Positions 5,970-19,862 of a stretch of DNA of 34,662 nt are shown here, piece after piece. Positions within the stretch are counted from its first letter, which is position 1, and each line of letters starts with the position of its first letter. This stretch comes from a virus (taxonomy: Duplodnaviria; Caudoviricetes): the IMG/VR virus record IMGVR_UViG_3300031974_000499, positions 1 to 34,662 of that record. One strand, given 5' to 3'. The notes below the pieces were generated by a model. The model was not told the origin of the DNA, did not search any database, and saw nothing but the letters and a program-made list of their open reading frames with translations. The position numbers and the translations under genes were made by a program.

Positions 5970-6281
5970 ATGTCTGACGTTAAAACCCATATCATTCAAA
6001 ACAATGATGACACAATCAGTATTGGTACTACACAAGATTATACCGATATCTTTGAACAAAACAAACTAGAAGCTGATAATAACCTCAACCGTAAAACTGG
6101 TGATAACACATGGGGACGTAAAGTAGCTTCTATTCCTCTTAATATTATTAATGCATGGTGCAAAGAATGGAACTGCACACTGCAACAACTTTTCCGAGAC
6201 CCTGACTTAAAAGCAAAGATGATGCTACGACTACGTAGTAGAGACTACTTAAAACTTAGAACAGATAATGGAAATATATAA
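5970..6281 (+). CDS. Hypothetical protein downstream of capsid
   Basis: 103 aa, GGAG RBS, RKVASIP...YLKLRT motif, TAATG-coupled to the next gene. Confidence 0.8.
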   Translation: MSDVKTHIIQNNDDTISIGTTQDYTDIFEQNKLEADNNLNRKTGDNTWGRKVASIPLNIINAWCKEWNCTLQQLFRDPDLKAKMMLRLRSRDYLKLRTDNGNI

Positions 6282-6892
6282 TGGCAGTAAGTAACTTTGG
6301 AGAACTAAGAGCGCTTGTAAAAGACTGGGGAAACCGTACTGATATTCCAGACGCTACCGTTAATTCTTTTATTAATCTAGCACAAGACAGAGCTAATCGT
6401 GTCTTGCGTATTCCTGTTCTTGAAAAGGTATCTGCTAGCCTTCCTATAGTAGATGGAGCTGTTGTTATTCCTTCTGATTACTTAGAAGCTAAAGCTCTTA
6501 CTGTTGATGTAAGTGGTACTATTATAGACTTACAACGTAAAGACCTCCCCTACGTTTTAAGCAAAGGTAAGCAAGCAGGTAATCCAAGATACTTTGCACG
6601 AGAAGCTAATAAGTTTATACTTGGCCCTAAAGGTAATCTAACTACAGCTAAGCTTGCATATTATTATGTAGCCCCTGATCTTGTAAACGACACAGATACT
6701 AATTGGTTTGTTGAGTATGGTACTGACCTTTTACTTTATGGTGCATTAGCAGAGCAAGCTTTATATACAAAGAATACAGAAGAAGCCGCACAGTTTGAAG
6801 CTAAGTTTAGAGGAGCGGCGGCAGAAATTGAAAACATGGCACAGCAAGCAGAGGCTTCAGGTTCAACATTAGGTATAGTACCTTCGAGGTAA
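6281..6892 (+). CDS. Head-tail adaptor / tail tubular protein A-like
   Basis: FINLAQDRANRVLR, IPSDYLE, GNPRYF and TNWF...DLLLYGAL motifs typical of podovirus adaptors, plus its position. Confidence 0.8.
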   Translation: MAVSNFGELRALVKDWGNRTDIPDATVNSFINLAQDRANRVLRIPVLEKVSASLPIVDGAVVIPSDYLEAKALTVDVSGTIIDLQRKDLPYVLSKGKQAGNPRYFAREANKFILGPKGNLTTAKLAYYYVAPDLVNDTDTNWFVEYGTDLLLYGALAEQALYTKNTEEAAQFEAKFRGAAAEIENMAQQAEASGSTLGIVPSR

Positions 6893-6895
6893 CCC

Positions 6896-7111
6896 ATGTC
6901 AGGTTTTTATAAAGATTATGATGATTCAGATCAAACATATTTAGATACTGCTGAGCAAGCCGCTAATGCCGCTATATCAGCGCAACAACAAGCTCAAGCA
7001 ATACTAGATACAATATATGACATTGTTCCTGTAGAAGACGTTACAGGATTAACAGATGCTTTAGCGTTAAAGCTAAGTAAAACAGAAACTATAAATGGTG
7101 GTAGCTATTAA
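6896..7111 (+). CDS. Short fibre-stalk/adaptor protein A
   Basis: MSGFYKDY N-terminus, Ala/Gln coiled coil, fibre-repeat-like VEDVTGLTDALALK, C-terminal INGGSY. Confidence 0.7.
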   Translation: MSGFYKDYDDSDQTYLDTAEQAANAAISAQQQAQAILDTIYDIVPVEDVTGLTDALALKLSKTETINGGSY

Positions 7112-7133
7112 AGGAAAATAAAAGGGTACGATA

Positions 7134-7466
7134 ATGACAGGATTCTACAAAGACTATCAAGACCCTGAAGGTCAGTTTAAAAGCTCAGCGGAACTTGCCG
7201 CACAGCAAGCACAACAAGCGGCACAGCAAGCACAGCAAGCGGCGCAGACAGCACAATCAGCTAGAGATGATATTAACGATCCTGATATAGATGACATAGA
7301 CGGATTGCAAGTAGCATTAGATGGTAAGGTAGACGATCCTCAAGTACTGACTGACGTACCTCTTAATGCTTTATTTACGGATACTACATATACTAATGTA
7401 TCTGAACTTACAAACGATGAAAACTATATAAGTATTGATGATGAACTTTCAGGCGGTACGTTTTAG
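7134..7466 (+). CDS. Short fibre-stalk/adaptor protein B (paralogue of A)
   Basis: MTGFYKDY N-terminus, AQQ coiled coil, IDDIDGLQVALDGK, VSELTNDENYI, C-terminal LSGGTF. Confidence 0.7.
   Translation: MTGFYKDYQDPEGQFKSSAELAAQQAQQAAQQAQQAAQTAQSARDDINDPDIDDIDGLQVALDGKVDDPQVLTDVPLNALFTDTTYTNVSELTNDENYISIDDELSGGTF
7200..7241 (+). repeat. 21-bp tandem repeat x2 (AQQAQQA heptad)
   Basis: gcacagcaagcacaacaagcg followed by gcacagcaagcacagcaagcg, one mismatch. Confidence 0.8.
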
Positions 7467-7487
7467 AATTTAACAGGGAAGCAAACA

Positions 7488-9557
7488 ATGGCTCAAAGAA
7501 TAAAGATCAAAAGAAGTAGTAGTGCAGAAAACCCTTCTAATTTAAAAGAAGGGGAACTAGCATATATCCACAGTAACAACACTGCGGGTAACCTTTACAT
7601 TGGTAGACCAGGGACAGGGGATGCTCAAACAGGTATTGCTAGTAATATTGACATTATTGGCGGGTTAATTGACCATGATAAGCTAAGTGGTATTTCCGCA
7701 GGTGCTGAAGTAAACCCAGATCAAGTATCTGCGGCTGAAAGAACAGCAGGTACAGAAACTGCTGAGCGTTCTTTCTCCCCTGCTGACGTTAAAAGTATGG
7801 TTGATACTCATGCTTTAACTGGCCTAAGCGCGGCTACTTCTTCTGCTCTTGGAGCGATTAAGCTTCACGATGATACAGCTCAAGGTACTGCTCCTGAAAA
7901 TGTCAGCTCTACTGCTAATAGATCATACGCTGTACAATTAAACGCTAGCAGTCAAGCATCTGTAAATGTACCGTGGACAGATACTGTCTATACTCTTCCT
8001 ACAGCAACTAGCAGTGCTATCGGTGGTATTAAAGTAAGTGCTACTGCGGCTAGTGTTACTCCTGAAACTATTAGTACTACAGCAAACCGTAGTTATGCTG
8101 TTCAAGTAGACAATAACGGCGTAGCTTCTGTAAACGTACCGTGGGCTACTTTAAATATAAGCTCTACTCCTACCAATGGTGCAGTTACTACAGCGATTAG
8201 CTCAGATTGGGCTTTTGATAATGTTAAAACTGCTGTACCTTCTGGTGCTTTATTTACTGATACTACATACACTGGTGGTACAGGTGTAACGGTAAGTGCA
8301 GGTGACGAAATTAGCATTGGTCAGGCAGTAGGTACAACTGATGACGTAACCTTTGACGATTTAACTTTAACAGGTAACATACAGTTAGATGACTCAGGTG
8401 AGATTAAGTTTACAAGTGAAGGCTTAGCTTATGATGAGTCTACAAATACTATTACTAGTACTAGAATAATATTTGATGAATGGGCTTATGATGATTATAC
8501 AGCTAATGAATTAGCTGATATTGCTAGAGCTATCCTGCGAATTGCAGGGCAGTTCGAAACAATGCCTGCTAAATATACGCATTTATTTGATTTTAATGAT
8601 AGTAATACTATTACCTCAGTTGATGTCCAACGCTTTCTAGATAGAGTAGAAGAGGCAGTTAGCGAGAGTAAGTTTACCGCAGTCGACAGTGCAATAAATA
8701 ATGCCACTGGTTATTATACTACTTTAATTGATGACCTTAAAGACGGAGACTATGACGTTGCTTCTACGAGTGATGGTAGTATTAGTCTAGGTTCTTCTTC
8801 TTCTCGTTTTAAAGATATTAACTTATCTGGTGACGCTACTATAGGCGGTGATCTTGATGTTGCAGGTACTGTTTCAATAGCTAATATTGTTACACAAACT
8901 AGCACAGCACCTGTTATTAAATTAAAAGATAGCACTAGCGGCGGTGACGATTTTAAAATAGCTGTTGATGGTGATGAGTTTGAACTTACTCAGCATACTG
9001 ATTTAGACGAGGCAGGTGACACCTCTATAAGTTTAATTAAAGCTAAGTCAAACGCCGCAGGTGACGGCGTTCTTATGGCTATCGGTGGAAACTATGATGG
9101 CAGTACAGCTTTAACTGTAACAGGAGCTGTAGGCTGTACAGGTAATTTAAGCGCTTTAGGTACAGTAATCTTAGGTGCGGCGGCAGTAATAGGTACTGGG
9201 TCTGCTGAAAGCCCAGAGTTCCCTGCTAAAGATACTACAGTAAGAGGAAGTCTAACAGTTGATGGTGACTTAACTGTAAGCGGTACAACCACTACAGTAA
9301 ACACTGAAACTATTAATCTTGCTGATAATATTATTGAGCTTAATAGTAATATAGGCGCTACCGATGCAACACAAAATGCAGGTATAGAAATAAACAGAGG
9401 TAACTATACAAACGTACAGTTATTCTGGGATGAGGATAATCACGATTGGAGAGTAGATACTGTAGGAGACGTAGCTACTGGTGCTACTACAAGTCCTCTT
9501 CTAACTGCTGAAAACTTTGAAACTAAGGTTACCGAACTAGACGGCGGTTCTTTCTAA
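7488..9557 (+). CDS. Tail fibre protein 1 (shaft-like, mosaic)
   Basis: MAQRIKIKRSS...LKEGELA N-terminal domain; T/S/G/D-rich; LTVDGDLTVSGTTTTVNTETINLADNIIELN...AGIEINRG fibre motif; C-terminal LDGGSF. Confidence 0.85.
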   Translation: MAQRIKIKRSSSAENPSNLKEGELAYIHSNNTAGNLYIGRPGTGDAQTGIASNIDIIGGLIDHDKLSGISAGAEVNPDQVSAAERTAGTETAERSFSPADVKSMVDTHALTGLSAATSSALGAIKLHDDTAQGTAPENVSSTANRSYAVQLNASSQASVNVPWTDTVYTLPTATSSAIGGIKVSATAASVTPETISTTANRSYAVQVDNNGVASVNVPWATLNISSTPTNGAVTTAISSDWAFDNVKTAVPSGALFTDTTYTGGTGVTVSAGDEISIGQAVGTTDDVTFDDLTLTGNIQLDDSGEIKFTSEGLAYDESTNTITSTRIIFDEWAYDDYTANELADIARAILRIAGQFETMPAKYTHLFDFNDSNTITSVDVQRFLDRVEEAVSESKFTAVDSAINNATGYYTTLIDDLKDGDYDVASTSDGSISLGSSSSRFKDINLSGDATIGGDLDVAGTVSIANIVTQTSTAPVIKLKDSTSGGDDFKIAVDGDEFELTQHTDLDEAGDTSISLIKAKSNAAGDGVLMAIGGNYDGSTALTVTGAVGCTGNLSALGTVILGAAAVIGTGSAESPEFPAKDTTVRGSLTVDGDLTVSGTTTTVNTETINLADNIIELNSNIGATDATQNAGIEINRGNYTNVQLFWDEDNHDWRVDTVGDVATGATTSPLLTAENFETKVTELDGGSF
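7833..8144 (+). repeat. Internal ~56-57 aa duplication in fibre 1
   Basis: ATSSALGAIKL...STANRSYAVQLNASSQASVNVPW and ATSSAIGGIKV...TTANRSYAVQVDNNGVASVNVPW. Confidence 0.85.
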
Positions 9558-9569
9558 TAAACTAAGACC

Positions 9570-9612
9570 ACTCCGCGTATATACGCAATGTAATAGGAGT
9601 CCATATATATGG
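9570..9612 (+). promoter_or_regulatory. Twin 12-bp palindromes and an anti-SD sequence around the RBS/start of fibre 2
   Basis: GCGTATATACGC (9575-9586) and CCATATATATGG (9601-9612, covering the ATG). ACTCC (9570-9574) is complementary to the SD GGAGT (9596-9600). Confidence 0.55.
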
Positions 9613-11195
9613 CACAAACAATTAAATTAAAAAGGTCTTCTACAGAAGGACAAGCGCCTTCCGAAGGAGACTTAGCTTTAGGTGAAGTAGCCATCAATAC
9701 TTATGATGGTAAGATGTATATTAAGAAAGATACAGGTACGGTTCAAACACCTGTAGAGTCTATTGTAGAAATTACTGAAACAAATATTGTAGATGATACT
9801 ACACCTGAGCTAGGCGGTAACTTAGATTTAAACAGTAAGAAAATAGTAGGTGACGGTGGGCTACAGCTAGGCTACGGTACTTCACATACAGACAGTTTAG
9901 GGATAACATCAGGCGTTAACAGTTTTAACTATGGTTGGAATCAGATTCAAAGCGCACAAAACACTTTAAGCACTGGTGATAGAAATCTTATTGGCGGTTA
10001 TGCAAATTTAATAGGTACGTACGAACAGCATGATACCGCTCCTGAGTATGGTACTGCAACAGGGCAGGTAGGTATTACCGCTACTTCTTTTACTTTGTCT
10101 ACTACAGGAACTACTACTGACTTACCTACTGTATTCCCTACTCCTGCCATTTTGGTAAAAGGAGCTTCTAGAGAATTAGTTGTTATAACAGGAACAACAG
10201 AAGACAGTACAGATACTTACACTGTTGAAGTAATACGTGGTTCTACGTTTGGTGATACTAGTTATGGGCTTACAAATCCTACTTTAGAAGTTGTGGGCGA
10301 TAAACTAGTTGCAAATGATAATATTGTTTCAGGAAGTACTAACAAAGTAGGGCAATATGGTACTCTTTTAAACTCTAACAGAAACATAGTACAGGGTTGG
10401 AACAATAAAGCTTCTAACGTACAGGATAGTTTAGTTGTAGGAAGAGAACACTTTGTTAGCAGGGTGAGTCACTCTTTAATAGCAGGTCTGGGTATAAGAA
10501 CTACTTCAGACGAAAACTACAATAACATTAGTGAAGCCTGTCTTGCAGTAACTCGGTGGGATGACTCTTTTGGATATCCTAAGATTCAAGGGGTAGCTCA
10601 AGTTAACTTAGGCTCTGGTAATCAAAACTATAGAAACTCCCACAACTCTCAGACTATGGGTAGAGGATGTATAGTAGGCTCTAGTAATAATAATGAGTCA
10701 GCCCATAACGCAATGGCTGTAGGTTACGCTAACAGAACCTGGTTAGACAATGGTTTCTCTGGCGGTAACAACTCAGATTGTTTTAGTAATAGTGGTATGG
10801 CGTTTGGTCATGGTGCTGTAGCTAGTAAAGCTGATTCTAACTTTGCGTTTGGTAAAGGTGTTACTACTCCTATTAGCGGAAGCGCGGCAGAGTCTGATGG
10901 TCAGGTTGCGGTAGGTAGGTATAACAAGTACGACAACGGTGAAGATGAGTTCTTTAGTGTTGGTACAGGAACTTCAAATGCTAATCGATATACCTCCTTT
11001 GCTATTCAAGATAGAACTGCTGATTCTAAAACAGACACTACAGGGTTTTGTGGGATTGTTATGAAGGCTCTTGCAGAGTCTCCAATATACGCTAGTGATT
11101 CGGCGGCGGCTACAGGTGGTGTTCCTATAGGTGGTTTATATAGATATGGAGCAAGCGCATCAACAGCAAACAACATTAGAATACGAGTAGTGTGA
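9609..11195 (+). CDS. Tail fibre / receptor-binding protein 2
   Basis: MAQTIKLKRSS...LALGEVAINTYDGKMY N-terminal domain, DTTPELGGNLDLNS, G/N/S-rich beta-roll-like repeats (AMAVGY, GMAFGHGAVA, FAFGKG) and FSVGTGTS. Confidence 0.85.
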   Translation: MAQTIKLKRSSTEGQAPSEGDLALGEVAINTYDGKMYIKKDTGTVQTPVESIVEITETNIVDDTTPELGGNLDLNSKKIVGDGGLQLGYGTSHTDSLGITSGVNSFNYGWNQIQSAQNTLSTGDRNLIGGYANLIGTYEQHDTAPEYGTATGQVGITATSFTLSTTGTTTDLPTVFPTPAILVKGASRELVVITGTTEDSTDTYTVEVIRGSTFGDTSYGLTNPTLEVVGDKLVANDNIVSGSTNKVGQYGTLLNSNRNIVQGWNNKASNVQDSLVVGREHFVSRVSHSLIAGLGIRTTSDENYNNISEACLAVTRWDDSFGYPKIQGVAQVNLGSGNQNYRNSHNSQTMGRGCIVGSSNNNESAHNAMAVGYANRTWLDNGFSGGNNSDCFSNSGMAFGHGAVASKADSNFAFGKGVTTPISGSAAESDGQVAVGRYNKYDNGEDEFFSVGTGTSNANRYTSFAIQDRTADSKTDTTGFCGIVMKALAESPIYASDSAAATGGVPIGGLYRYGASASTANNIRIRVV

Positions 11196-11205
11196 GGAGA
11201 ATATT

Positions 11206-11568
11206 ATGATAACATTTAAAGTTACTGGTATTAAGCACGATGAAAACGGTGGTATTACTAAAGTAGAATGGACAGCTAGAAAAGACACTACCATACCTGC
11301 TCGTCAATATGGAACAGTAGAATTTACACCTAACTCTGAAAGCAATAGCTTTGTTTCTTTTGAGTCTCTTACAGAAGAACAAGTATCAGGTTGGATAGAA
11401 AGTAGCTTAGGAGAAGAAGCTATAGCTCAGCTCGAAGCTAACATAGATGCTGTTGTAGCTCAACACGAAGCAAAACAAAGTGAGCCTACACAGCAAAACA
11501 CACCGTGGCATGTAGACCCTGTAATGGCAATGATGGGTGACGCAGATGATAGAAGAAAGGAAGCATAA
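11206..11568 (+). CDS. Probable tail fibre-associated/assembly protein
   Basis: Directly follows fibre 2 with a GAGGAG RBS. The FVSFESLTEEQVSGWI...LG motif and C-terminal PW are typical of small genes following fibres. Confidence 0.6.
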   Translation: MITFKVTGIKHDENGGITKVEWTARKDTTIPARQYGTVEFTPNSESNSFVSFESLTEEQVSGWIESSLGEEAIAQLEANIDAVVAQHEAKQSEPTQQNTPWHVDPVMAMMGDADDRRKEA

Positions 11569-11569
11569 A

Positions 11570-11734
11570 ATGACTAATGAAGCTAAACAAGCCGTAGATT
11601 TAGCCGCGGCTTCAACAGGTCTTGCCTCATTAGCGGCGTGGCTACCTCCATTGGCTAGCCTGTTTACTATTATATGGCTAGGTCTTCGTATTTATGAATC
11701 ACCTACAGTACAGAAGATTATCCATAAAAAGTGA
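11570..11734 (+). CDS. Small membrane protein, holin-like
   Basis: 54 aa from ATG 11570 (AAGGA upstream). Hydrophobic LAAWLPPLASLFTIIWLGLRIYE and a basic C-terminus. Confidence 0.6.
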   Translation: MTNEAKQAVDLAAASTGLASLAAWLPPLASLFTIIWLGLRIYESPTVQKIIHKK

Positions 11735-13613: not shown

Positions 13614-13898
13614 ATGGCTAAGAAGAAAGACCCAAGACTAGCAAGAGCAGGTGTATCAGGATACAACAAACCTAAGCGTACACCTAATCATCCTAAGAAG
13701 TCACATGTTGTTGTAGCTAAAGAAGGTGATAAAGTAAAGACTATACGCTATGGGCAACAAGGAGTTAAAGGTGCAGGTAAGAATCCTAAGACTGCATCAG
13801 AGAAAGCAAGACGTAAGTCCTTTAAAGCTAGACACGCTAAGAACATTGCAAAGGGTAAAATGTCTGCGGCATATTGGGCAAATAAATCCAAGTGGTAG
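13614..13898 (+). CDS. Small highly basic protein
   Basis: 94 aa K/R-rich, AGGAG RBS, RRKSFKARH...SAAYWANKSKW. Confidence 0.85.
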   Translation: MAKKKDPRLARAGVSGYNKPKRTPNHPKKSHVVVAKEGDKVKTIRYGQQGVKGAGKNPKTASEKARRKSFKARHAKNIAKGKMSAAYWANKSKW

Positions 13899-13907
13899 GG
13901 GGTCGGA

Positions 13908-13988
13908 ATGTACAGGTATAGCAAGCCAAAGAAGACTAAGAAAAAGAAAGTAACTGTCAAGAGAAAAGGAAAGAAACGTGCCTACTAA
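13908..13988 (+). CDS. 26-aa Lys-rich peptide (not in ORF track)
   Basis: MYRYSKPKKTKKKKVTVKRKGKKRAY*. AGGGGGT lies upstream, and the ORF fills the gap between two basic genes. Confidence 0.55.
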   Translation: MYRYSKPKKTKKKKVTVKRKGKKRAY

Positions 13989-14175
13989 AAGAAAACCTGC
14001 TAAGAAGAAGTCTACAGTAAACTCAGCAGGTAACTACACTAAACCAACCATGCGTAAGAATCTGTTTAATAAGATTAAGGCAGGTAGTAAAGGTGGTAAG
14101 GCAGGTCAATGGTCAGCTCGTAAGGCACAGATACTAGCTAAAGAGTACAAAGCTAAAGGTGGAGGATATAGATAA
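13978..14175 (+). CDS. Small basic protein (DUF5872-like N-terminal half)
   Basis: NYTKPTMRK...KGGKAGQWSARKAQILAKEYKAKGGGY. Confidence 0.8.
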   Translation: MPTKRKPAKKKSTVNSAGNYTKPTMRKNLFNKIKAGSKGGKAGQWSARKAQILAKEYKAKGGGYR

Positions 14176-14432
14176 TGCCTCTAAAGAAATCACAGAAAAG
14201 TTTAAAGAAGTGGACAAAAGAAAAGTGGGGTACTAAGTCAGGTAAGAATAGTACTCAAGGTAAGAAAGCTACAGGTGAACGATACTTACCAAAGAAAGCT
14301 AGAGACGCTTTGTCTAAAAAGGAATATGCCGCTACCTCTCGAAAGAAGAGAGCAGATACCAAGAAAGGTAAACAGCATAGTAAACAACCAAAAAGAATAG
14401 CTAAGAAAACAGCTAGATATAGAAGAGGTTAA
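14175..14432 (+). CDS. Small basic protein (DUF5872-like C-terminal half)
   Basis: SQKSLKKWTKEKWGTKSG...GERYLPKKA, TAATG-coupled to the previous gene. Confidence 0.8.
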   Translation: MPLKKSQKSLKKWTKEKWGTKSGKNSTQGKKATGERYLPKKARDALSKKEYAATSRKKRADTKKGKQHSKQPKRIAKKTARYRRG

Positions 14433-18970: not shown

Positions 18971-19278
18971 TGATGGGTATATTCTCAGCGTTAAAGGAAA
19001 ACAATCCTATAGGCGGTATAGCAGATTTATTAGGTGGAGGTACAGGCTTAACAGGTATGCTTGATAAAGCTTTGTATGCTCAAATGGCTAAGGCACAAGG
19101 TAAGAATAACTTACTCGGTCAGTTGTTATCAGGAGGCGGTACAGGAATACAATCGTTAATGCCTATATTTGGACAGCCTACAGGTATTATTCCTACGCAG
19201 TCTTCAGGACTTACCGAAGACATGTTAATGCCTAACGGTGACGTTGTACCTGTATATAATCAAGGAACAATGCTATGA
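18970..19278 (+). CDS. Small Gly-rich probable internal virion protein
   Basis: TAATG-coupled, with LLGGGTG / LSGGGTG repeats. Confidence 0.6.
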   Translation: MMGIFSALKENNPIGGIADLLGGGTGLTGMLDKALYAQMAKAQGKNNLLGQLLSGGGTGIQSLMPIFGQPTGIIPTQSSGLTEDMLMPNGDVVPVYNQGTML

Positions 19279-19862
19279 CAAAAGATGATGCAGTCTTACG
19301 ATTCTTAATACAGGAAGAAGGGTTTAAGCCTAGAACTTATATCCCTAAGAAAGACGGCAAAGCTATTGGTAACTCTGGACTAACCTTTGGTGTTGGTATT
19401 GACATTGGTCAAATGAATACTAAAGAGTTCTTGAACATGGGATTACCTAAAGAGTTTCAAGAGTCTCTACTACCTTATGTAGGTAAGAAAGGTGCAGAAG
19501 CTTTAGCTGTCGAGAAGGAACTAGGACACTTTACTCTTCCTACTGATGTTGCTATGAACATTAGCCGACAGAAGATTAGTAAATCTACAGATAAAATGAG
19601 AAGTAAATATAAGAACTATGATGAGCTACCGTATCAGCAACAAGCTGTAGGGTTATCATTGCTACACAACTTTGGCGATAGCTCGCTAGACTTTGGAACT
19701 ATGAAGTCTGTTATGGGTGGTGATCTAAAGGGTGGCATATCTAGACTAAGAAACGCAGACGAGTGGAAGAATCCAGAGTTGTTTGCAAGACGAAACAGAG
19801 AAGCTGATTTATTGCAATCGCTTATTCAGCCTCTACAACAGCAGAGAGGTTTAATGCGATGA
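19275..19862 (+). CDS. Pesticin-like (T4 lysozyme fold) muramidase
   Basis: FLIQEEGF...YIPK...NSGLTFGVGIDIGQ and C-terminal RRNREADLL. Confidence 0.85.
   Translation: MTKDDAVLRFLIQEEGFKPRTYIPKKDGKAIGNSGLTFGVGIDIGQMNTKEFLNMGLPKEFQESLLPYVGKKGAEALAVEKELGHFTLPTDVAMNISRQKISKSTDKMRSKYKNYDELPYQQQAVGLSLLHNFGDSSLDFGTMKSVMGGDLKGGISRLRNADEWKNPELFARRNREADLLQSLIQPLQQQRGLMR

What the first reader, a model, noticed from the sequence alone, without database searches (positions are those of the whole stretch)
6896..11195. Plug-and-socket grammar in the fibre genes: a candidate daisy-chained, mix-and-match receptor-binding system
Seen: four consecutive genes reuse three terminal motifs. Proteins A (6896) and B (7134) start M[ST]GFYKDY and end INGGSY / LSGGTF. 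Fibre 1 (7488) starts MAQRIKIKRSS..L.EGELA and ends LDGGSF. Fibre 2 (9609) starts MAQTIKLKRSS..L.LGEVA and has no GG[ST][FY] end. So there are two 'anchor + plug' proteins, one 'socket + plug' protein and one 'socket + tip' protein. Inference: the C-terminal GG[ST][FY] peptide docks into the N-terminal IKxKRSS domain of the next protein, and MxGFYKDY attaches the stalk to the virion (the adaptor gene is directly upstream). One locus could then build fibres of several lengths (A or B, with or without fibre 1, capped by fibre 2), and modules could be swapped between phages through a standard connector. Both motifs recur in marine phage fibres, but I do not know of a demonstrated interaction between them.
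Basis: partly seen in the sequence, partly recalled or inferred. Interest (0 to 1): 0.85.

Follow-up and report, generated by a model that had tools for sequence, protein, structure and literature searches.

The report
Plug-and-socket joints chaining phage fibres
Four neighbouring fibre genes of an uncultured marine short-tailed phage carry matching end motifs; a short tail peptide is predicted to clip into a cap domain related to the start of phage T4's gp37, so the proteins likely join end to end into one long fibre whose parts can likely be exchanged between phages.

Summary
The motifs are there as described. The locus belongs to an SU10-like marine podophage. The "socket" is homologous to the N-terminus of T4 gp37 (HH probability 97.5%), and T4 gp36, its known partner, ends in a similar peptide. 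In loci picked only by the plug, 85 of 121 are followed by a socket gene (scrambled control 0 of 53). A 3+3 model puts fibre 1's last 12 residues on fibre 2's IKLKRS strand (ipSAE 0.76, best control 0.04). Close relatives have either this split cassette or one long fibre lacking both motifs. The plug-socket DNA survives as a homology island between swapped modules.

Free choice of length is less supported: 84 of 94 three-gene chains run anchor > socket 1 > socket 2. A short A-fibre 2 form beside a long B-fibre 1-fibre 2 form is possible but untested. Anchor-adaptor binding rests on gene position only. End-to-end joining is known for T4, SU10 and BPP-1; I found no paper giving the motif-level connector (limited searches). 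This scan noted the same joint on other DNA at least eight times. New variant of a known kind.

The parts
6281..6892 (+). SU10-type adaptor; likely attachment site of the fibres
   Evidence: PF24175 E 1.4e-30. In SU10 the N-termini of the next gene's product bind the adaptor (PMC9509320 passages).
6896..7111 (+). Protein A, 71 aa: MxGFYKDY anchor, Ala/Gln-rich stalk, plug INGGSY at 7091-7108
   Evidence: Present in all 5 distinct two-anchor loci, with the first 25 aa identical; length 71, 84 or 97 aa in 13-aa steps. Synonymous excess.
7134..7466 (+). Protein B, 110 aa: MxGFYKDY anchor, stalk, plug LSGGTF at 7446-7463; likely carries fibre 1
   Evidence: Its C-terminal half changes together with fibre 1 between the window and L001/L003. 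Weak PHROG tail-fibre match, E 3e-8.
7488..9557 (+). Fibre 1, 689 aa: class-1 socket (residues about 1-59), shaft, plug LDGGSF at 9537-9554
   Evidence: Socket profile E 1e-15. Residues 278-638 match a one-piece fibre of relative L011 (26%, E 2e-9, small database). The plug forms the modelled interface.
9540..9730 (+). DNA homology island covering the plug codons, the spacer and the start of the fibre-2 socket, flanked by non-homologous DNA in relatives
   Evidence: blastn against L001 (9540-9728, 78%), L003 (9540-9637, 79%) and L012 (9540-9737, 76%).
9609..11195 (+). Fibre 2, 528 aa: class-2 socket (residues about 1-56), then a likely YadA-head-like beta-roll tip; no plug
   Evidence: HH probability 97.5% to T4 gp37 N-terminus. 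Four-strand model with pLDDT 89.6. Atlas neighbours carry YadA_head (a lead only).
11206..11568 (+). DUF7936 protein after fibre 2; role not tested
   Evidence: PF25590 E 1.6e-13.

Best explanation
The four genes encode a tail fibre split into segments that likely join end to end: the C-terminal D/N-x-G-x-aromatic peptides of one predicted trimer would dock onto the N-terminal cap of the next, as inferred for T4 gp36-gp37. Steps: (1) A and B attach by MxGFYKDY to the adaptor ring (inferred from gene position and SU10). (2) B's plug binds fibre 1's cap (inferred from gene order and co-variation). (3) Fibre 1's plug binds fibre 2's cap: each peptide lies along the IKLKRS strand across two subunits, with the last Phe against K8, R9, S10, P17, D21 and A28 (predicted). 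(4) Fibre 2's C-terminal beta-roll is the tip (inferred). (5) A is a second anchor, most likely carrying fibre 2 directly as a short fibre (weakly inferred). Between phages, segment bodies are exchanged while plug and socket stay linked (shown as DNA mosaicism; the recombination mechanism is inferred).
For: Model: fibre 2 (1-62) x3 with fibre 1 (590-689) x3 scores ipSAE 0.76, best of 3 controls 0.04. The three runs agree in 100% of contacts and partner pLDDT is at least 79. The mark was reached by 116 of 157 solved and 2 of 215 mismatched pairs; these counts hold only roughly for this job. The interface is confined to socket residues 1-11, 15, 17-18, 21-23, 28 and fibre-1 residues 678-689. No sequence relative of the socket or of T4 gp36/gp37-N was found in the PDB copy, so recall of a close solved complex is less likely.

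Homology: socket alignment against T4 gp37 N-terminus gives probability 97.5%, E 5e-12. T4 gp36 ends DFGYY. That gp36's C-end binds gp37's N-end is stated in PMC9603124 and PMC3004832 (passages).

Co-distribution: in plug-selected loci 85 of 121 are followed by a socket gene, against 0 of 53 for the control. In socket- or adaptor-selected loci, 187 of 194 plug-ended genes precede a socket gene, against 17 of 914 others (biased by selection). Class-1 socket proteins end in a plug in 87 of 87 complete cases, class-2 in 2 of 67.

Same clade: of 24 adaptor-selected loci, 7 have a short plug-ended anchor followed by a socket gene, 15 have one long fibre, and 2 are cut short. Nine long fibres tested have neither socket nor plug. 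The split form is not one clade on the adaptor tree (p-AU 0.0005).

Cultured phages: the same cassette occurs in Vibrio phage 1.208.B (also two anchors), S-CBS2, Ralstonia PY059 and Pelagibacter Mosig.
Against: No binding was measured. Only one of the three junctions was modelled, and the job is unlike the tool's calibration (pairs of single chains).

36 of 121 plug-ended ORFs are not followed by a recognised socket. Some belong to unrelated families that end DGGTF, and some have sockets elsewhere or too diverged. S-SCSM1 gp026 has a socket but is preceded by terS. Many surveyed loci are related, so the counts overstate independence.

The anchor has no match to SU10 gp12 (HH probability 0.2%) and only a 6-residue match to Lyrsu01 (3%). 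SU10's own gp12-gp13 joint lacks both motifs. 15 of 94 chains have same-class plugs at both joints, so what fixes the order is unexplained. Fold-search matches for the monomer were weak (Foldseek E 0.4 or worse; VIA Z 4.6 or less).
Confidence: 0.8

Rival explanations
1. Promiscuous connector: any plug fits any socket, so one locus builds A or B with zero, one or several fibre-1 trimers capped by fibre 2, like the bead chain of A-1(L).
For: 15 of 94 chains carry DGG[ST][FY] at both joints, 14 of them from loci selected by that motif. A window-like fibre-1 socket (93% DNA identity) follows a DAGSF plug in L167. Motura has one plug protein before two socket-tip proteins. A-1(L) gp81 chains about 14 trimers head to tail (PMC10966104 section 8).
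Against: The order anchor > class 1 > class 2 holds in 84 of 94 chains. A socket-bearing plug protein precedes a class-1 socket in only 4 junctions, against 99 for class 2. In socket-selected loci plugs differ by tier: before class 2, GG in 58 of 58 and T/S in 53 of 58; before class 1, AG in 19 of 37 and A/N in 25 of 37. No joint removing fibre 1 was seen in 4 runs (contigs show presence only).
Confidence: 0.2
2. A and B form one heteromeric anchor, or A is a capped stub, and there is a single fibre type B-F1-F2.
For: In SU10 the three N-termini of one fibre make unequal contacts with the adaptor. One-anchor relatives (L012/L013, L019/L020, L043) have no A.
Against: A keeps a conserved plug across five loci regardless of the B/F1 type. 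It scores +5.4 bits towards class-2 plugs in the socket-selected set but 0 in the full set.
Confidence: 0.35
3. The terminal peptide is a folding or trimerisation motif, or the chain is a head or neck fibre. The gene pairing would then reflect inheritance of a cassette, not binding.
For: Surveyed loci are related. S-CBS2 gp051 is annotated 'head decoration protein'. The socket fold resembles collagen XVIII/XV trimerisation domains weakly.
Against: The pairing holds across phages with different tail types and many unrelated anchors. Both motifs are absent together in one-piece fibres. The model interface is motif on motif. Here the genes sit in the SU10 long-tail-fibre slot.
Confidence: 0.1

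Closest known systems
Phage T4 long tail fibre, gp36-gp37 joint
   Same: The socket is homologous to gp37 residues 7-53. gp36 ends in D-x-G-x-aromatic (DFGYY) and lies directly upstream. Trimer-to-trimer, C-end to N-end attachment is described.
   Different: Here the joint is used two or three times in series, with two socket classes, tiny anchors and no gp34/gp35 knee, in a podophage. The passages I read name no motif and give no atomic joint; the 2026 T4 preprint fits the distal rod at low resolution.
Kuravirus SU10 long tail fibre (gp12 proximal + gp13 distal on adaptor gp11)
   Same: Same portal, capsid and adaptor families, and the same gene slot after the adaptor. It is also a segmented fibre.
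   Different: gp12 is 786 aa. Neither gp12 nor gp13 has the plug, the socket or the anchor motif.
Bordetella phage BPP-1 Mtd on fibre Bbp9 (Pfam Mtd_N, PF18454)
   Same: Mtd's N-terminal beta-prism is presumed to attach to the fibre (PMC10743442 passage). Bbp9, directly upstream, ends DLGGIA. 3 of 12 sockets match PF18454 weakly (best E 3e-4).
   Different: The window's own sockets do not match PF18454, and direct profile comparison with Mtd gives 0.1%. There is no diversity-generating element among the window genes I scanned (29 and 31 proteins).
A-1(L) bead-chain neck fibre (gp82-gp81-gp80); rope-and-dimer fibres of GP4, VP1 and A1002
   Same: Fibres built from several proteins in series (sections read).
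   Different: A-1(L) repeats one subunit about 14 times. A1002 hangs dimers on a rope protein. The sections read describe no such peptide and cap, and I did not compare their sequences.
Branched receptor-binding systems of Klebsiella phages (KP32 type; recalled, not read)
   Same: A modular anchor plus a swappable receptor-binding protein joined by a conserved peptide.
   Different: As recalled, there the peptide is N-terminal and docks on a T4-gp10-like domain, giving branches. Here the peptide is C-terminal and the chain is linear.

Membership tests
T4 gp36-gp37-type joint | N-terminal domain homologous to T4 gp37 N-terminus | tested here: met
   hhalign probability 97.5%, E 5.4e-12, 47 columns; tblastn hits include 259 Escherichia phage records.
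T4 gp36-gp37-type joint | Upstream gene product ends in a D-x-G-x-aromatic peptide like gp36 | tested here: met
   gp36 ends DFGYY, fibre 1 ends DGGSF. This is motif likeness only; it is too short for a homology test.
T4 gp36-gp37-type joint | Trimer binds trimer, C-end to N-end | tested here: inconclusive
   Predicted for F1-F2, not measured.
T4 long tail fibre as a whole | gp34, gp35 and gp36 homologues on a gp9 baseplate | tested here: not met
   No blastp match of A, B, F1 or F2 to gp34 or gp36 at E 1e-4; the window has a podophage adaptor and no baseplate genes among those scanned. gp35 itself was not compared.
Pfam Mtd_N (PF18454) | Score at the family cut-off | tested here: not met
   No match for window F1 or F2; 3 of 12 relatives match weakly, best E 3e-4.
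Pfam Mtd_N (PF18454) | Trimeric beta-prism fold as in Mtd and HylP | tested here: inconclusive
   Foldseek lists HylP (6x3m, E 0.4) first and Mtd (1yu1, E 1.7) lower, with none at E 0.001 or better. A widened profile hits Mtd at E 2e-4 in a small database.
SU10-type long tail fibre | First gene after an SU10 adaptor | tested here: met
   All 24 of 24 adaptor-selected loci have an M[STA]GFY[KE][DN]Y gene next; SU10 gp12 holds this slot.
SU10-type long tail fibre | N-terminus homologous to gp12 and bound to the adaptor | tested here: inconclusive
   No sequence match; binding was not modelled because the single complex job went to the F1-F2 joint.
Bead-chain fibre (A-1(L) type) | One subunit repeated many times head to tail | not testable with these tools
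   Needs stoichiometry or EM; gene order argues against it.

The most novel reading that the evidence does not exclude
A standard connector with a tier code is used across podo-, sipho- and myophages, T4 included. This phage uses two anchors to display two reaches of the same tip on one virion (short A-F2, long B-F1-F2), and tips are exchanged between unrelated phages at the conserved joint.
Probability: 0.3. Interest if true: 0.8.

Novelty: new variant of a known kind. Interest (0 to 1): 0.6.

Why it matters
It gives a residue-level, testable proposal for how T4 gp36 holds gp37 and how Mtd-type heads attach to fibres. Both are old observations for which I found no motif-level account. It also gives a simple rule for reading assembly order from gene ends in thousands of uncharacterised phage fibre loci. 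One clade here switches between one-piece and split fibres, which shows how the connector separates virion attachment from the host-binding tip. A 6-12 residue tag with a 55-residue trimeric cap could also serve as a protein-joining tool.

Tried and rejected
Families and structures: Pfam gave no family for A, B, F1 or F2. A phage-tail-repeat likeness in A and B (recalled) was not confirmed. PDB sequence searches with the socket, F1, the anchor, T4 gp36 and gp37-N found nothing relevant. Fold searches of the socket monomer gave only weak rows.

Locus scans: alignment A1 was too loose for a scan, so it was split into A2 and A3. The metagenome scan with B gave one locus.

Literature, 9 of 10 searches: searches returned nothing, and one search was swamped by 'mtDNA'. 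One search (MtdN, DGGxF, DFGYY, PF18454, DxGxF, IPR041352) listed 30 of 76 papers, all by 'MtdN' alone; the two phage ones were PMC9206674 (listing only) and PMC12379486 (passages: annotation only). Searches gave the papers cited. Passages of PMC12143355 and bioRxiv 2026.05.12.724579 did not describe the joint. No supplements were read; those of the T4 preprint are closed and may show the gp36-gp37 model. Subscription journals are not searched, so 'not in print' is weak.

Rejected: the A1002 chain fibre as a precedent (dimers on a rope), and a strict universal code by tier (DGGTF precedes class-1 sockets in 21 of 100 anchor junctions). No promoter or terminator signal stood above chance. Read laying showed no variant lacking fibre 1, which proves nothing about absence.

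Full report
Context. The window encodes a terminase, SU10-type portal, capsid and adaptor, a nozzle-like protein and ejection-like proteins, so it is a Kuravirus/SU10-like podophage by gene content. Twenty runs of 8 studies hold over half of the fibre locus, 19 of them labelled seawater or marine (two may be the source). The terminase is 57-59% identical to Vibrio and Photobacterium phages. The host is unknown.

Observation. All coordinates and motifs are correct. Three consecutive genes of 39 called end in GG[ST][FY], against about 6e-5 per gene. An independent assembly holds the stretch in one contig, and gene A shows mainly synonymous change.

The socket. A profile of 68 fibre-2-type N-termini matches T4 gp37 residues 7-53 at 97.5% probability. 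T4 gp36, the gene upstream, ends DFGYY. Reviews state that gp36's C-end binds gp37's N-end (PMC9603124 and PMC3004832, passages). A link to Mtd_N is weaker. 3 of 12 sockets hit PF18454 (best E 3e-4), a widened profile hits Mtd at E 2e-4, and the direct comparison fails. The monomer model has four strands (pLDDT 89.6); its fold matches to HylP, Mtd and collagen trimerisation domains are below significance. BPP-1 Bbp9, directly before mtd, ends DLGGIA.

Co-distribution. In loci fetched by socket or adaptor, 210 unique socket genes were found. 192 of the 208 with an upstream gene have a plug-ended one, 87 of 87 complete class-1 proteins end in a plug, and 2 of 67 class-2 proteins do. With independent gene calling, 187 of 194 plug-ended genes precede a socket gene, against 17 of 914 others. 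These sets are biased by selection, so I also fetched loci by the plug alone. DGGTF-stop occurs in about 2000 IMG/VR stretches against 77 for the scrambled control. Of 131 matches in 126 loci, I dropped 4 duplicates, 2 without downstream room and 4 in frames under 50 aa; 85 of the remaining 121 have a socket gene starting within 420 bases. Of 77 control matches, 53 were distinct with room and none has one. The 36 misses include unrelated families and T4-like loci with other layouts. Loci are related, so these are not independent counts. The cassette also occurs in cultured phages of other kinds: Vibrio 1.208.B, S-CBS2, PY059 and Mosig (three tiers), and RsoM2USA and Motura (one joint). S-SCSM1 gp026 has a socket with no plug gene directly before it.

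Natural contrast within the clade. All 24 of 24 adaptor-selected loci have an M[STA]GFY[KE][DN]Y gene next. Fifteen have one long fibre (9 complete, 625-1257 aa), 7 have a short plug-ended anchor followed by a socket gene, and 2 are cut. Nine long fibres (8 complete, 1 open) have neither motif, yet parts of F1 and F2 align with such fibres. On an adaptor tree of 23 rows (near-duplicates left out, two distant outgroups) the split forms are rejected as one clade (p-AU 0.0005), and the five two-anchor loci group together (94/100). So the connector appears where the fibre is in pieces, and the architecture has changed more than once or moved laterally.

Model. Three copies of F2 1-62 with three of F1 590-689 scored ipSAE 0.76 against a best control of 0.04. 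The runs agreed fully and partner pLDDT was at least 79 (the mark was reached by 116 of 157 solved and 2 of 215 mismatched pairs, only roughly applicable here). Only the last 12 residues of F1 touch, on socket residues 1-11, 15, 17-18, 21-23 and 28: K6 with D685, K8 and R9 with G686-F689, and F689 also with P17, D21 and A28. Each peptide contacts two socket chains. K8, R9, S10 and P17 are among the most conserved columns. This supports binding but does not show it.

Exchange between phages. The window and L001 share a 97% identical adaptor and gene A. DNA likeness ends inside B at 7193, returns at 9540-9728 over plug, spacer and socket, and resumes at 11570; L003 and L012 show the same island. 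L108 and L109 join an L001-type plug and socket to a different anchor, and L167 joins a window-type socket to another anchor and adaptor. Bodies are swapped while plug and socket stay linked.

Order and the second anchor. 84 of 94 unique three-gene chains read anchor > class 1 > class 2. Plugs differ by tier in socket-selected loci, but not universally: 15 of 94 chains have the same class at both joints. B scores as a tier-1 plug (last ten residues) and F1 as tier 2. A scores as tier 2 in one training set (+5.4 bits) and neutral in the other. A is constant while B and F1 change. My best reading is a long B-F1-F2 fibre, with A a second anchor that may carry F2 directly. Free length variation is possible but not favoured. 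Anchor-adaptor binding follows SU10, where the N-termini of the protein encoded after the adaptor bind it (PMC9509320 passages), but there is no sequence match.

What is known. End-to-end joining of fibre trimers is known for T4 and SU10 and presumed for BPP-1. Bead-chain (A-1(L), sections 8 and 13) and rope (A1002, sections 11 and 12) fibres are other designs. My nine searches found no paper naming this peptide-cap pair, within the limits given under Tried and rejected. Eight earlier notes of this scan describe the same joint on other DNA. They are not independent support; I had reached the T4 and BPP-1 links before reading them. Special to this locus are the split-versus-one-piece contrast in one clade, the junction homology island and the duplicated anchor.

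Verdict. Real feature. The F1-F2 joint is likely (0.8); free mix-and-match is about 0.2; the two-length reading is about 0.3. New variant of a known kind; interest 0.6.

Noticed in passing
L034:2567, L072:8001, L087:8001, L102:121, L046:8001: Some class-2 proteins end in a different tail (INGG[SD]ANG, INGGGAGG, LDGGNA) and are followed by genes starting IQ[IL]RRD, the classical Mtd_N type: a possible third plug-socket class.
   Followed up: partly
L406:5479-6492 (S-SCSM1 gp024): The annotated tail-sheath stabilisation protein ends FGFDGGFI, two genes before a socket-bearing fibre; it might be a plug that anchors a fibre at the neck.
   Followed up: no
L405:3375-8527 (Achromobacter phage Motura): One socket+plug protein is followed by two socket+tip proteins, a natural test case for alternative tips.
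   Followed up: no
L184:7441-7782, L183:3942-4280: In Mosig and PY059 the short anchor is preceded by a 112-113 aa gene that resembles a BppU-type N-terminal domain (recalled, untested), so the chain may start one module earlier.
   Followed up: no
window 11080-11195: Fibre 2 ends in a GGVPIGGLY...IRIRVV motif also seen at the end of the L007 one-piece fibre and of Motura's last fibre; each is followed by a small gene.
   Followed up: no
window 13614-14432: Three small, very basic proteins (94, 65 and 85 aa; PHROGs of unknown function) lie between the fibre block and the short-fibre gene and are conserved in relatives.
   Followed up: no
window 19275-19862: A pesticin-type lysozyme-fold protein lies among the ejection-like genes (PF16754).
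   Followed up: no
L197, L213, L226, L233, L238: An unrelated family of 70-82 aa proteins also ends in DGGTF without a socket gene downstream, a source of false plugs.
   Followed up: partly
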